From Octopus sinensis (lineage: Eukaryota): a stretch of 64,000 nt of DNA. Under the pieces are notes generated by a model. The model did not search any database. It worked only from the letters and a program-made list of their open reading frames with translations, and had not been told where the DNA came from. Each line of letters begins with the position of its first letter. Within the stretch, counting starts at the first letter, position 1. This document shows positions 1 through 64,000 of the stretch, piece after piece. Location: assembly GCF_006345805.1 (NCBI RefSeq), contig NC_042997.1, positions 175,212,001-175,276,000 of the forward strand, in the 5' to 3' direction. The translations under genes and the position numbers were made by a program.

Positions 1-413
1 TCTCAGGTCGGTGAGGGCACAACCCCGAACAATGGCTGACCATCTAACTTAAACAAGGCTGTTAATGTCAAATTCAGCGAATCTGACATTAAAGGGACTG
101 TTCTCCTCCTCTCATCTCTGTCCTCTCTCTCCCAGCGTACCACAGACTGCTCAAAATGGGGAGTAGATAGACAGCCGACAACTGATGAAGGGTCCTTCGT
201 ATTACTTGTCGTTTTTTTCTCTCGTTATTCGTGTATTTAACTCATTTGTTTTCGTATTTCATGTTTACTGTTGGTGACGTCCTGTACCCATATATGTATG
301 TATAAATATATATATATATATATATAACATTCCTTTCTTAGTGGTAAGACCATAAGGGGTCGACTTCTAGCATAATGGATGTCCACTAAGTGGTCATCCC
401 TCTTATATGTATG

Positions 414-444
<31 letters not shown>

Positions 445-451
445 TATATAT

Positions 452-646
452 AGTTAATCCAAACATGAAAACACAAAGAGAAAACACATCAACGTGAGGA
501 CGTGGAACAAGTATAATGTCATTGGACGCTCAGGAAAGAAGGAGGGTTTAACGTTTCGAGCGGAGCTTTTCGTCAGAAACATAGGAAAAGGAAAGATCCA
601 AAGAAGGGAAGACGGAGGGAAAAAATCGCCAATGGTACACACGCGG

Positions 647-650
<4 letters not shown>
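452..650 (-). mobile_element. Penelope-like terminal-repeat fragment (hammerhead-bearing repeat), copy 1
   Basis: About 200-bp repeat shared with 8921-9100 and 63874-64000, each abutting a (TA)n-type tract at AGTTAATCCAAA; contains a minimal hammerhead motif on the minus strand. Confidence 0.65.
546..580 (-). ncRNA. Minimal type I hammerhead ribozyme motif
   Basis: Minus strand reads GUUU-CUGACGA-A-AAGC-UCC-GCUC-GAAA-CG-UU-AAAC: intact CUGANGA and GAAA core, 4-bp stem I (GUUU/AAAC), stem II with one mismatch, palindromic AACGUU in place of stem III, predicted GUU cleavage triplet. Confidence 0.7.
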
Positions 651-684
<34 letters not shown>

Positions 685-959
685 TATATATATAGTCAAA
701 TCGAAAAGTCGAACATTAACAATAACCAACAAGAGGATGTGCACATGGAATGTATTAGTTTGATGCTCGATAAAAAGAGAGAGCTTTTAACGTTTCGATT
801 TGATTTATCTCATGCTCACATGGACCTTCTACGTCCTTTCCGGCTGATTTGAAGTACTTGATTCATGGATTTTCTTACTCTACCCTTGGATTACGTTACC
901 TTTAAATTTCTACGGATTAAGTTTCTGCGCGCACGCACGCACACACACACACATATGTA

Positions 960-3018: not shown

Positions 3019-3248
3019 GCGGTGAGCCGGCAGAAACGTTAGCACTCCGGGCGAAATGCTTAGCGGTATTTCGTCTGCATTACGTTGTGAGTTCAAATTC
3101 CGCCGAGGTCGACTTTGCCTTTCATCCTTTCGGGGTCGATAAATCAAGTACCAGTTACGCACTGGGGTCGATGTAATCGACTTAATACCTATGTCTGTCC
3201 TTGTTTGTCCCCTCTGTGTTTACCCCCTTGTGGGTAGTAAAGAAATAA
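3019..3248 (+). mobile_element. tRNA-derived SINE, family A
   Basis: Head with B-box-like GAGTTCAAATTCC, central GCCTTTCATCCTTTCGGGGTCGAT block; many copies in the window. Confidence 0.85.
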
Positions 3249-3279
3249 CTATTCCGCTTGTGCTTACATTTTTCATATA

Positions 3280-7166: not shown

Positions 7167-7598
7167 GAAATAAGAAGTGTTGCAAGGTTAGATCAATAGA
7201 ATTGCATTACCGCTATAACTGAGTGGATGATTCAACGACATTTACGATAAAAACCACCTGCTAATTCACACACTTTGATTGTGAATTTATACCCATCAAC
7301 ATAGAAATCTCTCTGCTGAAAACCACTAACTTCAGAAAACAATCTACTACGAAAAGCAACCTCGACATTAGAATAGTAATGAACATCAGGAAGTCATGGT
7401 TATATCATGATTTCTAATCAGTGAAAAGCACGGTCAATACCCACTCTTCAATGTCTCAAAAAAAGCTACGACGCGTTAGAGATGACTGACCGCGCGAGGT
7501 TATTTATCTTTGGCACCTTTACGAAGCGAATCTTTTCTCATAGCTTAGCTATGCCGATTTGTTTGACTAAAGGCGGTGCTCCAGCATAGCCACAGTCG

Positions 7599-7794
7599 GC
7601 CCGATTTCAAAGATTAATAAAAAAAAAAGCAAGCACATGAAGATGCATGAAAAAACTTTATAATTCTATGAAGTTCATTAAAGGCCATTTTTTTTTTCTG
7701 TTTCAGGAAGTACCTACCATGGCTTGAAGTGGAGAGCATCGTTTTTTGTTATATCTTCATGTGCTTCTTTTTTATTAACCTTTGAAATCAGGGC
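7599..7794. repeat. Short fold-back element (about 50-bp imperfect inverted arms), possible MITE
   Basis: GATTTCAAAGATTAATAAAAAA...AAGCACATGAAGAT at left is mirrored by ATCTTCATGTGCTT...TTATTAACCTTTGAAATC at right. Confidence 0.55.
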
Positions 7795-7835
7795 AACCTT
7801 TCTACCGCACCCTACATACATACATACATACATAC

Positions 7836-7899
<64 letters not shown>

Positions 7900-7916
<17 letters not shown>

Positions 7917-8761
7917 TAAAAGTGAAGTTCAATCTTCCTTGTTTATTTGCAATGTTACCCAACCAAAGTGACGCATAATGGGGGAATACGATGAATTAAG
8001 TTTTCCCTGAAATGTTAATACGAACAGAATGAAACAAGTTTCGCGTAAATCGGACCAGTAGTCATTGAGATATTTGAAGTTTGGGGGCATAAATACCCAA
8101 AACTCTGCACAATAGGAAAAATGAAGAGGATGAAACTCTAATCTTTCGATTAATTACAGTGATTTGAAAACGAAAAATACGATTTGTCTTTTTTACAGTT
8201 AATGTTTCTATTTTCGTTTTTGTTAAACACAATATTTTAATCATTTAGAAATATTTTTAAGTAGATGTGATTTCAAAAATTTAAGTTGTTTGTACAGTAA
8301 GTATTTATGTTTTAGCTTTCTTTAAACAGACAATATTTTAATGTTTTTTTTAATTATTTTCAAGTGAATACTATTACAACAATTTTTAGGGGGCATATTT
8401 AAAAAATATTTTAAAGTGAAAATAACTAAAAATACGGTAAATATTTCGTAAAAGACTCGTTCGTAACCTCGGTGTGAAATAACTTTTTTTCATAGGTTGT
8501 TTCGAGTGCACGTCCTGCTACTACGTAACAGCTATTTGCGATAAAGGACCCGAAATACCTGTTACGTGGTAGCAGGGTGTGCAAGAAATAACAGCCAAAT
8601 CTTTCCTTTTCTGAGGAAAGAAGCCATTTACGCGTGATTTCGATGTCACATTCATTGAAAACATGCGAAATAACATGGAAAAGAAAAAAAGCACGAAACA
8701 TAACTCCGTTGCTGGGAAACTCGGACTTCCCCGGTAACCCAACGGGTTACGGTTAGTCTAG
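7900..8761 (+). mobile_element. Non-autonomous Helitron-like element
   Basis: Ends in hairpin GTAACCC-AAC-GGGTTAC (8734-8750) followed by CTAG|T (8758-8762); begins in TATATATATTAATAAAA. 5' boundary approximate. Confidence 0.65.
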
Positions 8762-8920: not shown

Positions 8921-8925
<5 letters not shown>

Positions 8926-9100
8926 ATCCAAACAAGAAAACACAGAAAAAAAACACAGCAACGCGAAGACGTGGAACAATTAAAATATTATTTGACGCTC
9001 AGGAAAGAAGGAAAGGAGGGTTTAACGTTTCGAGCGGAGCTCTTCGTCGGAAACAAAGGAGAAGGAAAGATCCCGAGAAGGGAAGACAGAGGAAAAAAAT
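8921..9100 (-). mobile_element. Penelope-like hammerhead-bearing repeat, copy 2
   Basis: Homologous to 452-650; abuts (TA)n. Confidence 0.65.
9020..9054 (-). ncRNA. Minimal hammerhead motif with a core substitution
   Basis: GUUU-CCGACGA-A-GAGC-UCC-GCUC-GAAA-CG-UU-AAAC: perfect stem II, but CUGA changed to CCGA. Confidence 0.6.
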
Positions 9101-9649
9101 ATTTTTGCTGGTGGTGCTCAAGAGATCAAGAGAGAGAGAGAGAGAGAGAGGAGAATTTCCAATTTATCTAACTTAGCCGAAAAATAAGTTTGCACAGAAA
9201 ATTCCCCCACCCGAGGGAAGTCAAAAAGTGGAAATCACATTTCATTATTTAGGCATTACTACAATAATTGTCAATAACTTCTTATCTGTTGTTACCACTT
9301 TCCAGTAGCACGCAAACAGCATAGTTTCTTTAGGGTACATAATGTTAAGGTGAGTAATTTTTTTTTCTTAGACAATATTACTTATAGTTTTCAAACTCCA
9401 CAAACCAGAAGTACACATCCACACGGTCCCTCTCCTCCCAGCAACCCAACAGCAGTTTCCGAAATTAAGCCAGCTGTTCACATCTACATACTGTCTAAAG
9501 ACAGGTAAAATTCCATTTCTAGAAGTTTAGAACTCAAAGACACAACTGTCCCACAATAACATTGAATAAAGACAAGAGCTCTTCCATATTCTAATAGGTT
9601 GTGTAAATGCAGATTCTGTCCGTTTGGTCCTCTACATTCCTCTCTCAGC

Positions 9650-15396: not shown

Positions 15397-15538
15397 CTCA
15401 CATCAAATTGCCGAACTCTCCTTGGTTTTTTTTCCAAGTGGTGTTTCTTTACAGTGAGACTAAATATGCGTTTATTTAACATATTGTATTGCTTTCCGTA
15501 TCCCTGTTTTTAAAACGATTCTGTATTGGTCCTAGAGT

Positions 15539-16188
15539 TCGTCTGCCGCTACGTTCTGAGTTCAAATTACGCCGAGGTCGACTTTGCCTTTCATCCTTTC
15601 GGGGTCGATTAAATAAGTACCAGTTACGCACTGGGTCGATATAATCGACTTAATCCGTTTGTCTGTCCTTGTTTGTCCTCTCTGTGTTTAGCCACTTGTG
15701 GATAATAAAAAAATAGGTATTTCGTCTGTCTTTACGTTCTGAGTTCAGATTCCGCCGAGGTCGACTTAGCCTTTCATCCTTTCAGAGTCGATTAAATAAG
15801 TACCAGGTACGCACTGGATCGATGTAATCGACTTAATCCTTTTGTCTGTCCTTGTTTGTTCCCTCTATATTTAGCCCCTGTCTTTACGTGCTAAGTTCAA
15901 ATTCCGCCGAGGTCGACTTTGCTTTTCATCCTTTCGGGGTCGATAAATTAAGTACCAGTTACGCACTGGATCGATGTAATCGACTTAATCCTTTTGTCTG
16001 TCCTTGTTTGTTCCCCCTATATTTAGCCCCTGTCTTTACGTTCTAAGTTCAAATTCCGCCGAGGTCGACTTTGCTTTTCATCCTTTCGGGATCGATAAAT
16101 TAAGTACCAGTTGCGTACTGATGTCGATCTAATCGACTAGACTCCTCCCAAAAATGTCGGGCCTTGTGCCTAGAGTAGAAAAGAATAT
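15539..16188 (+). mobile_element. Tandem array of four head-truncated family-A SINE units
   Basis: Units of about 150-180 bp, each restarting near GTCT..TACGTTCTGAGTTCAAATTCCGCCGAGG. Confidence 0.85.
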
Positions 16189-16811
16189 ATTAGTGTCGTA
16201 CCAGTAAAAAATGATGAAGTTTATTGTTGTTCATTTCAGTTATTCTTAAACTTTCTGCTTCATTCTGTCCGAAACACCAAATACTCTTCTCTTTCTAACA
16301 TCCAAACTAAACTCTACCTAGCCGTAGCTATCTCAACACCTTTTGGTTTGTTCAGTCACAACCTTACCACGACTACCCACTACAATCGACGTATTATACA
16401 ACTTCCACTCTCTCTGATTTTATTATACTTCAAATCAACTGATTGTTAAGAGCTCCGCCAATTCTATGCTAGTTATCTTTGGTAGCACATATGCTTCACC
16501 CATCAGAAACAGCTCGGCAGATGACTGAAGTCATCAACCGAGCAATTAAAATAATACATATATCAGCGACAGAGGCAGTGTTAACACCGAGTAGGGATGA
16601 TCTGTTAGAACAAACTATACTGCGGTAGACACCATGAGATAAAATATCATATTGGCTTTTGGTGCAAAATGAACGCTTGTTTATAGCGCTAGCCGGGAGA
16701 GAAATCCCCTCCATCTACAGCGTCGAGACAACCAGATCACGTGATTTAGACCTTCTATAGAAGAATGGTGTCAGAACAGGCATTGGTGTCGCGATTAGCC
16801 TGTGATCTTGT

Positions 16812-18374: not shown

Positions 18375-18750
18375 TCATCATTCATCATTGTTCGACCGTG
18401 GTCGAGACAATGGAATTTACCATGCTACGCCAGACTTCACAATCCATCATGGCATTACGGAGGTCCTGTTGCTGGATGCCTGTATCCCTGGAGATTACAT
18501 CAGGGTAGGAGAGTGTGCGCCCTCTGGTATTACGAGTAGATGGCTTCCAGAGAAGAGTAGAAATTACTTCTTTTTCAGCTCTACAACAATGTCCAGCAAA
18601 CTGGACTCTCCTACCTTTCACAAGAGATGACACAGGTGGTAGTTTCCCATATATTTGCATTTTGGTTGGATGGCGCTTCCACGAGAGATTTTGAGCTCTC
18701 ATAAGGAGGCGAGTGTAGGTTCCATCCAGCCGCCTCTCAAGCTTCTTGCC
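18375..18750 (-). mobile_element. 5'-truncated RTE-clade LINE inserted in the hAT transposase
   Basis: KKLERRLDGTYTRLLMRAQNLSWKRHPT...RRVQFAGHCCR...WRSMV, a typical RTE ORF C-terminus, followed by a short TGA/GAT tail. Confidence 0.8.
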
Positions 18751-19044
18751 TGTCACCACTTTCAGCTGACGTAGAGCAGACACTTCATCTGCAGCTAGCT
18801 CTACTTCTGCCTGTTGTAAAATTTTCACAACTCCACATTCAAAATTTGGGCTGTGCACAATGGCTGCCGATCGAAGCAAAGATTTCTTAAACTCCTCGTA
18901 AGGATACAATGTGAAACTTTCGTCAAAAAGAATTCTAGCATCTCCCAGATCTATTTCTGTTCTTTGCAAGGTGGCTGTTACTGAGCGTAACTTTCCTAAA
19001 TTGTCTTTTAGAGTCTGCAGATCATTATGATCGCTTGGAGTCAA
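18385..19044 (-). pseudogene. 219-aa chimeric ORF: hAT transposase segment fused in frame to an RTE ORF C-terminus
   Basis: ORF track; about the first 98 aa are hAT-like and the rest RTE-like; the start is not ATG. Confidence 0.6.
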
Positions 19045-19271
19045 CAGATAATCAAATCACCAGCTTTAGTTCGCCTTGAAAAGAGTCTAAAAACGGCTTG
19101 AGTTAGATGTACCTCTCAATCATGTCATAAGTACTGGACCAACGAGTTTTATTTGTATAGGTTGCAAAGGCGGTTTTTGCCGAAGTTTTCCCGCAAGTTT
19201 TGATGATTTTAGCTTCCCCATCAACATATTAATTTTATCAAGCAGAAACAGTTGGATTAAATTTATGAGAC

Positions 19272-26994: not shown

Positions 26995-27228
26995 GGTGGC
27001 GAGCTGGCAGAAATGTTAGCACGCCGGGCGAAATACTTAGTGGTATTTCGTCTGCCGCTACGTTCTGAGTTCAAATTCCGCCAAGGTCAACTTTGCCTTT
27101 CATCCTTTCAGGGTCTATTGAATAAGTACCAGTTACGCACTGGGGGTCGATATAATCAACTTAATCCATTTGTCTGTCCTTGCTTGTCCCTTCTGTGTTT
27201 AGCCCCTTGTGGGTAGTAAAAAAAAAGG
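26995..27228 (+). mobile_element. SINE family A nested in a family-B remnant
   Basis: Full head; TSD GGTTTT(C/T)ATCAACCAAA on both sides. Confidence 0.85.
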
Positions 27229-27402
27229 TTTTTATCAACCAAATCCATTCACAAGGCTTTGATCAGCCCTGGGCTATAGTAAAAGAGGCTGGCTCAAGGG
27301 ACTGAACCTGAAACCATGGGGTTTGGAAACAAACTTGTTAACCACACAGCACACATAAACATAAATACTTCACATGTTTTAGTTCACATTTATCTATTAT
27401 CT

Positions 27403-27763
27403 TTTACTTGTTTCAGTCATTAGATTGTGGCCATGCTGGAGCACAACCTTGAAGAAGTATTTTTCGTTGAATGAATCGACCCCCAGTACTTTCTTTTTTT
27501 CAAGCCTGGTATTTATTTTAACTAAGTTATGGGGATGGAAACACAACAACACTAGTTGTCAAGCAATGCTTGGGTCATTCTCAGACACACAACACACACA
27601 ACAGGATTCTTTCAGTTTCCATCTACTAAATCCACTCACAAGGCTTTGGGTCAGCCCGAGGCTATAGTTGAAGATACGTACCCAAGGTACCATACAGTGG
27701 GACTGAACCTGAAACCATGTGATTGGGAAGCAAACTTCTTACCACACAACCATACCTGCACCT
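27403..27763 (-). mobile_element. SINE family B (older)
   Basis: Reverse-complement match with CpG decay. Confidence 0.75.
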
Positions 27764-27862
27764 ATTCTAACATGTTTTCAATTAGATAACCAGCCTCAAA
27801 ATTTGTAAAAAAAAAAAAAACCTGCATTGGTGGAATACAGACGTAGCATATAGAGTTATATA

Positions 27863-28262
27863 AGGTGGCAAGCTGGCAGAAACGTTAGCATGCCGGGTGA
27901 AATGCGTAGCCGTATTTCGTCTGCCATTACATTCTGAGTTCAAATTCTACCGAGGATGACTGTGCCTTTCATCCTTTCGGGGTCGATTAAATAAGTACCA
28001 GTTACGCACTGGGATCGATGTAATCGACTTAATCCCTTTGTCTGTCCTTGTTTGTCCCCTCTATGTTTAGCCCCTTGTGGGTAGTAAAGAAATAGGTATT
28101 TCGTCTGTCGTTACGTTCTGAGTTCAAATTCCACTGAGGTCAACTTTGCCTTTCATCCTTTCGGGGTTGATAAATAAAGTGCCAGTTTCGCACTGGGGTC
28201 GATGTAATTGACTTAATCCCTTTGTCTGTCCTTGTTTAGCCCCTTGTGGGCAGTAAAGAAAT
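27863..28262 (+). mobile_element. SINE family A dimer
   Basis: Full unit joined via AATAGGTATTTCGTCTG to a head-truncated unit; degenerate TSD ATA(T)AGAGTTATATA / ATATTGAGTCATATA. Confidence 0.85.
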
Positions 28263-28365
28263 ATATTGAGTCATATATTATAATTTTGACTAAATCTTGT
28301 ACATTTTCAGTGTCTCCTATACAGCTGCAGAAGGCATGTTTCTTTTTCTAATTTTGTTTTTATAG

Positions 28366-33008: not shown

Positions 33009-34288
33009 CGAGGGGCGTTCAATAAGTAATGCCCCTGACCCACTTCCCATAGCAGTAGAGCAACGAAACTTGGCACAGTTATTAGTCTTTTTCTACATAG
33101 GAACCACCCAGAGTTACACATTTCTCCCATCGTTTGATGCAGCTCTGAAGACCGTTTTTGTAGAAGACCCCAGCTTGGTCCTCCAACCACGACGTGACTT
33201 CAGAAATCAAGGCTGCATCATCTGGGAAACGCTTTCCTTTCAAAAACAACTTCATGGCTGGGAAGAGGTGAAAATCAGAGGGTGCAGGTCAGGAGATGGG
33301 GGATGAGTTCATAGCCGCACGCCTGTGCTTCTGATCTGGCGACACGCGAGTTGTGGATCGGAGCGTTGTCCTGCAGGAGGAGGATGCCTTTGCTGATCTT
33401 GCCCCACCTCTTGATTTTGATAGCTTCTTTTAATTTCCTCAAAAGTGAAGCATAATAGACTCCTGTAATTGTGGCACCCTTTGCCAAGAAATCTGTCATC
33501 ACTACACCATCCTGGTCCCAGAAGATTGTGAGCATGACCTTGCCAGCGGAGGGCTGCACCCTTGCCTTCTTTGGAGGAGGTGAGTCACGGTGCTTCCACT
33601 GCATTGACTGGGCTTTGGTCTCTGGATCATAGTGATGGACCCAGGTTTCATCCTGTGTAATCAGTCTTTTGAAAAATTTTGACTCATCTTCTTGGCACAT
33701 CTTCAAATTCATCCTCGCGTTATCGACGCGTTCTTGCGTCTGGAAAGGGGTGAGCAGCCTGGGAATTCATCTGGCAGACACCTTTTGCATATGCAAATGG
33801 TCATGAATGATAGTTTCCACAGACCCGGTACTAATCTTGACCTCATGGGCTATTTGGCGAATAGTTATGCGTCGATCTTCCAAAATGGCAGCCTCAACTT
33901 GACGGACAGATGCCTCATCAATGGCAGAAGGGGGTGGCCAGATCTGGGAGCTGTTTCCACAAAGTTCCGACCATGTTTGAATTCACGATGCCAGCGTTTT
34001 ACAAGGTCATATGATGGGGCATCATCACCATAAGTTACTTTTATTTCATCAAAAGTCTCCCGTGGTGTGCGTCCTTTCAAATACAAAAACCGGATCACTG
34101 CTCGACACTCAACAGGCTCCGTTTCACACTTGACTCAGTTCAAACACCTGTAAATCAGAAACCACAATTAGTTCAGAGCTGTAATTTGCCACTTAATCTA
34201 TAGATATATAGGTAATTGCACATGCAAAATTTCAGCTAGATCAAACAACTGCAAGTGGGTAGAGGCATTACTTATTGAACGCCCCTCG
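33009..34288 (-). mobile_element. Near full-length mariner transposon (1280 bp)
   Basis: TA TSD, TIRs CGAGGGGCGTTCAATAAGTAATGCC; frameshifted transposase. Confidence 0.95.
33101..34121 (-). pseudogene. Mariner (DD34D-type) transposase pseudogene
   Basis: ORF pieces IRFLYLKGRTPRETFDEIKVTYGDDAPSYDLVKRWHREFK and LITQDETWVHHYDPETKAQSMQW...GKVMLTIFWD...LLQDNAPIH; frameshifts; probable start codon reads ACG. Confidence 0.9.
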
Positions 34289-54361: not shown

Positions 54362-54890
54362 AATTGTGTACAGTGCTCAGGTGCACTACAACTCATCTAA
54401 AGTGTATATATAATCAGGTGTAGTTTCGGCGGATTTCGGAAAGCATGAGGGCCTTAAAAGATGCAGTGTCATGGCAGTCAACAACTGACGCAGGCAGTTT
54501 ATTCCATGCTTCAGCAACTCTGAGCGTGAAAAAATGTTTCCGAAAGTCATGGGAGCTGTATTGTTTTCTGACTTTGTAGGCATGTCCACGTGTGTTAGAC
54601 ACATGGAGATCAAAAAGGTGTTCAGTGTTGTTGTTGGTGAGGTGGTTGATAACTTTGTGGGTGTTTACCAAGTCCGTCGCCAAACGCCGGAGCTTCAGTG
54701 AATCCATGCCCAGGGAAACAAGGCGCTCAGAATATGGTAGGTGTCTGATGGAGGGTATGCGTTTGGTTGCACGTCTCTGGACAGATTCCAGGAGGTCAAT
54801 GTTCTGTGCAAGATAGGGGTTCCAAACTGATGATGCGAATTCCAAGTGTGGTCGTACCATAGCTGTATACAGTTTTAAATAGACACACAA
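54362..54890 (-). mobile_element. 5'-truncated CR1-clade LINE (ORF2 C-terminus)
   Basis: ORF 54414-54890 LYTAMVRPHLEFASSVWNPY...LESVQRRATKRIP...TRGH...RKHFFTLRVAEAWNKLP; short 3' UTR and (ATT)n tail. Confidence 0.9.
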
Positions 54891-55683
54891 TATTTGAATT
54901 CTCTATACATACACTGTAAAACCAGTTATTTTTGCTTGGTGTTACTGATGAAAGAAAGAAACAGTAGATTGTTATCTTCATAATATCCAGCTTTGTTTGG
55001 GTGTTCTATAAAAGAATATGGTAATTCATACTTGTTACTTGAAGCAGAAGCAATCTTGAAAATATGGTGGTAGGAACTTGACACAAGAATAGAAAAACAA
55101 ATCCTAAATCTATAAACTATTTGCTTTGAATGGTTGAGATATTTATATATTTTTATGAATGCCGGCTTTTCAAAACATTATACACACTCACATACACTTG
55201 TGTACTTGCATTCATAGCCATAGATTCACACGGTACCCTACATCAGTTGCAAAATATTCAGTGAACTAACGCATTCCTTTGTTGTTAAGTAGTAGAGGCT
55301 TTGAACTGAAGATTTGTGTGTGTGTGTGTGTAAACATAGTGCTGTGAAGGATGAATAAGGATAATAAGAGATGTTAAAATACTGGTTGGAAATGGGATGA
55401 GAGTATTACTGTAGGTGGTGTGTAATGTGAAAGTAAAAAAAAAAAAAAATCCCCAAAATTACAAGGTCAGAAAGTTATTTAGAATTTGCTCTTTCTAGTA
55501 TTATATGCTAGCAGTGAAGAAAACTGAAGAATGTTTGAGAAGCAGTCACAGATTTGTTGATGCTAAGGATGTTGGGCTTCATAGAATACAATGGCACATG
55601 ATCAAAATCCTGAAACACTGCCAGTAATGTCTGTTGTATGTAGAGATTTTGGTGTGGTCTCCTGTAGTATCCATAATCTACAC

Positions 55684-63873: not shown

Positions 63874-64000
63874 AGTTAATCCAAATATGAAAGCACAAAA
63901 AAACACAACAACACGAGGACGTGGAACAAATATAGTATTATTGGACACTCAGGAAAGAAGGAAAGAAGTAGGGTTTAACGTTTCGAGTGGAGCTCTTCGT
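63874..64000 (-). mobile_element. Penelope-like hammerhead-bearing repeat, copy 3 (cut by window edge)
   Basis: Homologous to 452-650; minus strand ...ACGA-A-GAGC-UCC-ACUC-GAAA-CG-UU-AAAC at 63973-64000. Confidence 0.6.

What the first reader, a model, noticed from the sequence alone, without database searches (positions are those of the whole stretch)
546..580. Minimal, dimer-type hammerhead ribozyme in a dispersed (TA)n-anchored repeat (three copies)
Seen: the minus strand has GUUU-CUGACGA-A-stem II-GAAA-CGUU-AAAC here, at 9020-9054 and at 63973-64000. Each copy has a different lesion (stem II mismatch; CUGA to CCGA; another stem II mismatch), so the consensus GUUUCUGACGAAGAGCUCCGCUCGAAACGUUAAAC is an intact core. 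Stem III has no loop and can only form in trans through the palindrome AACGUU. Established: Penelope-like elements and non-autonomous retrozymes carry minimal type I hammerheads that cleave as dimers. Inference: three copies in 64 kb imply a very abundant self-cleaving RNA repeat family that targets (TA)n and may yield monomeric or circular RNAs.
Basis: partly seen in the sequence, partly recalled or inferred. Interest (0 to 1): 0.75.

Follow-up and report, generated by a model that had tools for sequence, protein, structure and literature searches.

The report
Penelope retroelement ends with variant hammerhead
The three motifs are real, stripped-down hammerhead-ribozyme sequences inside ~200-base end pieces of a Penelope-type jumping gene with many thousands of copies in this genome (probably an octopus); the arrangement is known, most copies carry a C where textbook hammerheads have U, and self-cutting is untested and likely weak or protein-assisted.

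Summary
The motif is present at all three places. It is the minimal type I hammerhead in the terminal repeat (pLTR) of a Neptune-type Penelope-like element. Longer genomic copies extend through a ~1.7-kb CA-rich 3' UTR into an RT + GIY-YIG ORF and carry the same motif upstream of it. The window copies are ~200-nt solo ends in (TA)n, not a separate retrozyme. C4 is ancestral on a flank-only tree, so copy 2 is unmutated. The motif is far more conserved than its flanks across subfamilies (1 of 30 vs 49 of 113 variable columns). Of 100 copies, 92 read through the predicted cut and 60 begin in one 20-nt band about 110 nt upstream; this fits run-off copying from an internal priming site and gives no genomic sign of cleavage. 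Earlier scan notes report octopus PLE hammerheads and fixed-start solo pLTRs on other DNA. Verdict: new member of a known kind, with a selected U4C core worth one assay.

The parts
453..649 (-). Copy 1: ~197-nt solo pLTR/3' end of a Neptune-type Penelope-like element, CUGA subfamily
   Evidence: 88-95% identical to the 40 scored genomic copies and to the ends of ORF-bearing elements
546..580 (-). Minimal type I hammerhead motif: stem I 5' arm 577-580; core C3-A9 570-576; extra A 569; stem II 565-568 with 558-561 (G10.1 mutated to A at 568); GAAA 554-557; C15.2-G16.2-U16.1 551-553; U17 at 550; stem I 3' arm 546-549. Predicted cut between 550 and 549
   Evidence: sequence; G at 10.1 in 86 of 89 sampled copies
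414..452 (.). (TA)n microsatellite at the element's 3' end (target site)
   Evidence: 80 of 100 sampled copies end in ATTAAC + TAT or TTTATA
650..693 (.). (TA)n microsatellite at the 5' side of copy 1, shared with the neighbouring remnant
694..798 (-). 5'-truncated end of an older sister family (E) that begins inside stem II of its own hammerhead; relatives read C(C/U)GACGA-A-GAGC-uau-GCUC-GAAAC-GUC
8922..9128 (-). Copy 2: ~207-nt solo pLTR of a CCGA subfamily, TA repeat at its 3' end
9020..9054 (-). Hammerhead motif identical to the majority CCGA 35-mer (U4C core, stems I and II intact)
63875..64000 (-). Copy 3: solo pLTR, CCGA subfamily; continues about 80 nt beyond the window to the same 5' landmark
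   Evidence: (L071)
63973..64000 (-). Hammerhead motif of copy 3, cut by the window edge; lesions at 2.1 and 11.4

Best explanation
The three repeats are ~200-nt terminal pieces (pLTRs) of a Neptune-type Penelope-like retrotransposon, each carrying the element's minimal hammerhead motif, and they likely arose when the element's reverse transcriptase, primed at a nicked (TA)n, started at an internal site of an uncleaved transcript and ran off near that transcript's 5' end. Shown: full elements read pLTR(hammerhead) - ~290-nt 5' UTR - ORF (RT, CX4CX2C linker, GIY-YIG) - ~1.7-kb CA-rich UTR - hammerhead - fixed 3' end. The element's own sequence after the 3' end begins TTTATATA, like the target. 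Most copies begin in one 20-nt band. The motif is under purifying selection in master lineages, with C at position 4 ancestral and U4 derived. Inferred: the band marks the start of the pLTR transcript (about 60%). The motif would work only as a dimer or with the element's protein, slowly, and cleavage would not be needed for insertion (about 45% that it cleaves measurably). The window copies are dead passengers.
For: Linkage to ORF. 16 of 30 loci picked by the ORF's 5' end carry the motif-bearing repeat just upstream. In the 10 elements holding both ends, 5' pLTR and 3' end are best matches to each other in 6 of 10 and rank 2-3 in the rest. Protein: RVT_1 E 2.5e-4 and GIY-YIG E 5e-4 to 2e-2 on broken frames, below curated cut-offs; 861 homologs at E<=1e-20, the best about 50% identical, with RT domains. 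The linker and GIY-YIG region resemble Neptune1_Nv by eye (PMC8557442 Fig. S2). The motif has the PLE minimal-hammerhead traits of PMC4209133: extra base after A9, G10.1-C11.1, palindromic 15.2-16.2. Selection: 1 of 30 vs 49 of 113 variable columns across 8 subfamily rows, p 1e-5. Sister families swap stem I (GUUU/AAAC, CUUU/AAAG, ACAC/GUGU) and stem II, and position 7 takes all four bases. 5' ends: 60 of 100 at -120..-101, 8 further upstream, 32 downstream. PMC11167929 shows internal RT initiation and protein-assisted, dispensable cleavage for another PLE; PMC2377424 places the Penelope promoter in the pLTR.
Against: No cleavage, transcript or start site was observed. The 5'-end band also lies in the loop of a small hairpin in some subfamilies and is AT-rich, so stalling or microhomology could cause it (folding z-scores not significant). 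No extra-G cap signature stood out by eye. The majority core has U4C, which lowers activity in vitro (PMC3088659). The site is GUU, stem I is 4 bp, and the monomer's predicted fold buries GAAAC. Clade assignment rests on visual comparison, not a tree with references. The internal-initiation element in PMC11167929 primes without homology to the target, unlike the TA-like site seen here.
Confidence: 0.8

Rival explanations
1. A non-autonomous retrozyme-like family: short hammerhead repeats are transcribed, self-cleave as dimers and spread through monomeric or circular RNAs.
For: A discrete ~205-nt unit with very high copy number; a few head-to-tail clusters exist (L018 four copies, L102 three). 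A preprint argues retrozymes derive from PLE pLTRs (10.64898/2026.07.22.740005).
Against: Only 2 distinct same-strand pairs within 1.5 kb among 60 loci. Three of the L018 copies share private changes, as in local duplication. The unit is colinear with the autonomous element's pLTR and follows its subfamilies. Copy ends lie about 110 nt before and 93 nt after the cut, not at it.
Confidence: 0.08
2. The motif is hammerhead-derived but no longer catalytic; it is kept as a protein-binding, folding or promoter element of the pLTR.
For: The U4C majority here (70 C, 19 T of 89) and A6U in a 13,219-copy sister family both alter core bases, yet those lineages amplified. Old subfamilies have a U-U mismatch in stem I. 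Loop II and other non-core bases are as invariant as the core, which catalysis alone does not require. No cleavage footprint.
Against: Across families, position 7 is free, stems covary and C3, G5, G8, A9, G12-A14 and 15.1-16.1 stay fixed, which is the catalytic pattern. A natural U4C viroid variant stays functional in vivo (PMC3088659).
Confidence: 0.3
3. The short copies are ordinary random 5' truncations, and the pile-up reflects a local hairpin or AT-rich microhomology rather than a transcript end.
For: The band coincides with a hairpin loop in the CUGA subfamily and with an AT-rich stretch; 50 of 71 5' flanks are TA/TG repeats (a few landmarks mis-called).
Against: Loss is about 0.3% per base over the first 112 nt, about 10% per base in the band, and low again upstream; the hairpin is only 4 bp in other subfamilies.
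Confidence: 0.25
4. Full-length elements are copied from a circular RNA made by cleavage at both hammerheads and religation (model of PMC4209133).
For: 5' pLTR and 3' end of one element share subfamily and private variants; copies cross the cut site intact, as they would on a religated circle.
Against: Read-through of a tandem master predicts the same. A circle has no end, so it does not explain the 5'-end band.
Confidence: 0.12

Closest known systems
Minimal hammerheads (min-HHR) in pLTRs of metazoan Penelope-like elements (Cervera and De la Pena 2014, PMC4209133; parts 1-2 of 4 read)
   Same: Type I order, 4-bp helix I, extra base after A9, G10.1-C11.1, palindromic 15.2-16.2 with no loop 3, present in both flanking repeats, mostly found as dispersed single motifs.
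   Different: Helix II is 4 bp with a 3-nt loop (paper: 7-8 bp in Schistosoma); the majority and ancestral core is CCGACGA (U4C), which the text I read does not mention; the host is probably a cephalopod. The paper's supplementary alignments were not seen.
Neptune-clade EN+ Penelope-like elements (PMC8557442 passages and Fig. S1-S2; PMC3846280 passages)
   Same: Single ORF with RT, CX2-5CxxC linker and C-terminal GIY-YIG; partial tandem pLTR; microsatellite targeting; solo and inverted pLTRs.
   Different: Long (~1.7 kb) CA-rich 3' UTR; hammerhead about 380 nt upstream of the start codon; no 30-40-bp tail seen at 3' ends (0 of 100 sampled copies continue into the element).
Poseidon element PAc of Anolis (Frangieh et al. 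2024, PMC11167929; parts 1-2 of 4 read)
   Same: Copies end at a fixed internal site downstream of the hammerhead; uncleaved RNA appears to be the template; AT-rich targets.
   Different: PAc initiates in an AC-rich stem-loop without target homology; here the site is followed by TTTATATA, which resembles the (TA)n target (38 of 100 copies keep TTTATA, 42 go straight to TAT).
Non-LTR retrozymes (PMC7229834 passages; bioRxiv 10.64898/2026.07.22.740005 part 1 of 5)
   Same: Short non-coding unit with a type I hammerhead, related to a PLE pLTR.
   Different: Retrozymes are tandem arrays yielding circular RNAs; this family is dispersed, with ends not at the cleavage site.

Membership tests
Minimal type I hammerhead of PLEs | Core boxes CUGANGA and GAAA with N-U-H site | tested here: inconclusive
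   Met in the CUGA subfamily (717 exact); the majority has U4C (3,409). All other core positions are fixed; the site is GUU (GUC in older subfamilies).
Minimal type I hammerhead of PLEs | Helices I and II supported by compensatory change; extra base after A9; G10.1-C11.1 | tested here: met
   stems swap between sister families; within this family they are simply invariant
Minimal type I hammerhead of PLEs | Palindromic 15.2-16.2 with no stable helix III | tested here: met
   ACGU in families A, B, C and E; the AACGUU duplex is only -3.5 kcal/mol
Minimal type I hammerhead of PLEs | Self-cleavage as a dimer | not testable with these tools
   needs in vitro assay; the genomic footprint test was negative (2 of 100 copies start at +1)
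EN+ Penelope-like element | Single ORF with PLE-type RT and C-terminal GIY-YIG | tested here: met
   (all frames seen are broken; Pfam hits below curated cut-offs)
EN+ Penelope-like element | Partial tandem pLTR of variable length flanking the ORF, containing the hammerhead | tested here: met
   16 of 30 loci; 10 of 20 fetched elements hold both ends
Neptune clade | CX2-5CxxC linker between RT and EN; microsatellite insertion | tested here: met
   C-x4-C-x2-C; TA flanks; resemblance to Neptune1_Nv rather than Nematis by eye
Neptune clade | Phylogenetic placement with reference Neptune RTs | not tested
   no named reference proteins were held
Non-LTR retrozyme | Tandem units each with a hammerhead | tested here: not met
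   2 distinct same-strand pairs among 60 loci; window copies are 8.5 and 55 kb apart
Non-LTR retrozyme | Monomeric linear and circular RNAs | not testable with these tools
   only assembled contigs were served

The most novel reading that the evidence does not exclude
A U4C hammerhead core has been kept by purifying selection through several generations of an active animal retrotransposon, despite sitting in a mutable CpG, and later reverted to U in one subfamily. Together with an A6U sister family of more than 13,000 copies, it would be a natural series of attenuated, protein-licensed ribozymes. The matched CCGA/CUGA pair would directly test what PLE hammerheads do, and the TA-like internal priming site would explain microsatellite targeting and the flood of solo pLTRs.
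Probability: 0.3. Interest if true: 0.55.

Novelty: new member of a known kind. Interest (0 to 1): 0.3.

Why it matters
The function of hammerheads in Penelope-like elements is still open. This family offers a natural one-base pair of cores (CCGA and CUGA) on otherwise near-identical backgrounds, both of which amplified. It also shows that descriptor searches demanding CUGANGA would miss about four in five copies of this family. As a kind of system it is known, and the window copies themselves are inert.

Tried and rejected
Rfam scan: no hammerhead family hit at E<=10. RNA evidence: no RNA holder listed; only contigs could be laid, which cannot show ends or expression. They show the family, with both C4 and U4, in runs of four organisms. 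CpG decay as the sole source of CUGA: rejected, because all other dinucleotides at positions 4-5 total only 205 and 15 of 15 sampled copies of one subfamily have U against 4 of 70 elsewhere. CCGA as copy-specific decay: rejected. Cleavage footprint at 5' ends: 2 of 100 start at +1, about what scattered truncation gives. MAFFT alignment across families was poor and was replaced by a motif-anchored table (6 of 33 rows did not match the pattern). Intact ORF: none seen in 20 fetched elements, longest stop-free frame 583 aa (output partly cut). Host gene: no evident exon among 23 ORFs of 110 aa or more, so sense transcription through the copies cannot be judged. ARAGORN found no tRNA in 7 family-C loci. 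Paper searches found no paper on octopus PLE hammerheads or on U4C in PLEs; the library lacks most subscription journals and Repbase, and the supplements of PMC4209133 were not opened. Scan look-ups by sequence and by 'U4C CCGA' returned nothing.

Full report
Observation. The motif is present on the minus strand at 546-580, 9020-9054 and 63973-64000. The strict core pattern matches once in the window against 0.02 expected, and its 3' half four times against 0.36. Rfam reports no hammerhead, as expected for a motif without helix III. The three copies share about 200 nt of sequence and a fixed 3' end followed by TA-rich repeat.

Genome context. The window lies in G000 (2.72 Gb). The host is probably an octopus; this rests on recalled SINE-like repeats in the window and on earlier scan notes, and was not tested. 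A DNA search with copy 1 gave 4,108 candidates, 40 scored. Exact 35-mers number 717 with CUGA, 3,409 with CCGA and 4,331 with any two bases there. Of 100 copies anchored on a downstream 35-mer, 27 held the exact motif, which gives roughly 16,000 copies as a lower bound.

Parent element. Two of the first 30 loci shared sequence upstream. Walking 5' led through a ~1.7-kb CA-rich UTR to an ORF with PLE-type RT motifs, a C-x4-C-x2-C linker and a GIY-YIG domain (hits below curated cut-offs because frames are broken). One broken frame has 861 homologs at E<=1e-20. Of 30 loci picked by the ORF's 5' end, 16 carry the hammerhead repeat just upstream, of variable length, followed by TTTATATA and a ~290-nt leader. 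Ten of 20 fetched elements hold both ends; 5' and 3' repeats of one element belong to the same subfamily (self rank 1 in 6 of 10, rank 2-3 in 4). This is the pLTR-ORF-pLTR layout of EN+ Penelope-like elements. The linker region resembles Neptune1_Nv in Fig. S2 of PMC8557442 by eye. No intact ORF was seen (partly cut).

The core. In 89 of 100 downstream-anchored copies that cover the motif, position 4 is C in 70 and T in 19. T is fixed in one subfamily (15 of 15) and sporadic elsewhere (4 of 70), like other CpG transitions in the motif (3-9 of 89). A tree of 121 copies built on flanks only and rooted on two distant relatives has C at the root and 8 changes, against a mean of 39.9 and minimum of 31 in 500 shuffles. 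Kin share labels, so this shows lineage structure, and the root depends on two outgroup rows. Window copy 1 falls in the derived CUGA clade and has lost G10.1. Copies 2 and 3 are CCGA; copy 2 is unmutated and copy 3 has two stem lesions. Across 8 subfamily majority rows, grouped by eye, 1 of 30 motif columns varies against 49 of 113 flank columns (Fisher p 1e-5; rows not independent). Individual copies decay almost evenly, 579 of 595 at 12 core-region positions (G12 omitted, N17 included) against 5,282 of 5,519 in flanks.

Sister families. Family B (13,219 exact matches; first 100 listed: U6 in 99, all four bases at 7) links to a PLE ORF in 1 of 12 loci (L153) and has stem I CUUU/AAAG. Family C (3,195 matches; first 100: U4 in 93, C4 in 7, A6 in 98) has stem I ACAC/GUGU and a different stem II. 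Family E left the remnant at 694-798. Covarying stems with a free position 7 and fixed catalytic bases support a hammerhead fold.

How the short copies arise. For 100 copies anchored downstream of the predicted cut, 5' ends lie at -120..-101 in 60, further upstream in 8, and between -100 and +13 in 32; 92 read through the cut and 2 start at +1 (BLAST ends can overrun a few bases into TA/TG flanks). At the 3' end, 42 continue with TAT, 38 with TTTATA, 7 otherwise, 13 lack the terminal hexamer, and none continues into the element. All three window copies start at or near the same landmark. PMC11167929 (parts 1-2 of 4) shows that a PLE RT initiates inside the transcript downstream of the pLTR, that hammerhead mutants still insert, and that cleavage needs the protein. 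PMC2377424 (passages) places the Penelope promoter in the pLTR. The simplest reading is run-off copying from the internal site to the start of the transcript; this is inferred, and a hairpin or microhomology cause is not excluded. I reached it; earlier scan notes reach the same reading in other genomes, which is not independent evidence. The idea of testing 5' ends came from notes.

Does it cut? Untested. PMC4209133 (parts 1-2 of 4) found no cleavage of a single minimal motif and low cleavage of dimers. U4C lowers activity in vitro but supports viroid infectivity (PMC3088659 passage). A6 changes also lower Mg2+ activity (PMC7151607 passages). Folding of copy 1 and of an intact CUGA copy pairs the 5' arm with GAAAC. 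Partners in cis are rare: 7 of 60 loci had a second motif, representing 4 distinct pairs, 2 direct and 2 inverted. Retrozymes by contrast are tandem arrays with circular RNAs (PMC7229834 passages; preprint part 1 of 5).

Novelty. PLE expansions in octopus are in print (PMC13282606 passages, which do not mention ribozymes), and solo pLTRs are described (PMC3846280 passages). My searches found no account of this family or of a U4C-majority PLE hammerhead, but unseen supplements and repeat databases may hold them. Verdict: real, a new member of a known kind, interest 0.3.

Noticed in passing
window 694-798 (-): Remnant of an older sister PLE-end family (E) sharing the (TA)n with copy 1; relatives show both CCGA and CUGA cores and a GUC site.
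   Followed up: partly
L152-L163; genome-wide pattern: Sister family B with core CUGU-N-GA (A6U) in 13,219 exact matches; position 7 free; one locus (L153) runs into a PLE endonuclease frame.
   Followed up: partly
L164-L175: Family C: canonical minimal hammerhead (3,195 exact matches) behind an (AAT)n spacer and, in several copies, a head that looks tRNA-derived by eye (ARAGORN negative); likely a SINE using PLE machinery.
   Followed up: partly
L010:1470-1530, L102:6290-6350: The 5'-end band lies in the loop of a GGUC(A)..(U)GACC inverted repeat and includes an initiator-like TCATTC in the CUGA subfamily (motif recalled).
   Followed up: partly
L104, L106, L115, L119: Internally deleted elements that keep the 5' pLTR, the start of the ORF and the 3' end.
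   Followed up: no
L018:1501-2298; L102:6334-7088: Head-to-tail clusters of 4 and 3 element ends, about 195-280 nt apart, where a cis dimer could form if transcribed.
   Followed up: partly
window 328-403: A ~75-nt repeat in TA flanks next to copy 1, also seen in L021 and L087; identity not determined.
   Followed up: no
window 33275-33766 (-), 54414-54902 (-), 18385-19056 (-): Transposon fragments: mariner-type transposase (Pfam PF01359, E 1e-24); the other two have no Pfam hit, and 54414-54902 looks like a LINE C-terminus by recall.
   Followed up: partly
window 3069-3270, 15538-16226, 27047-28301 and others: Many copies of SINE-like repeats, recalled as octopus-type SINEs.
   Followed up: no
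L067 (minus-strand frame 7357-8422): A 355-aa C2H2 zinc-finger frame near one long copy.
   Followed up: no
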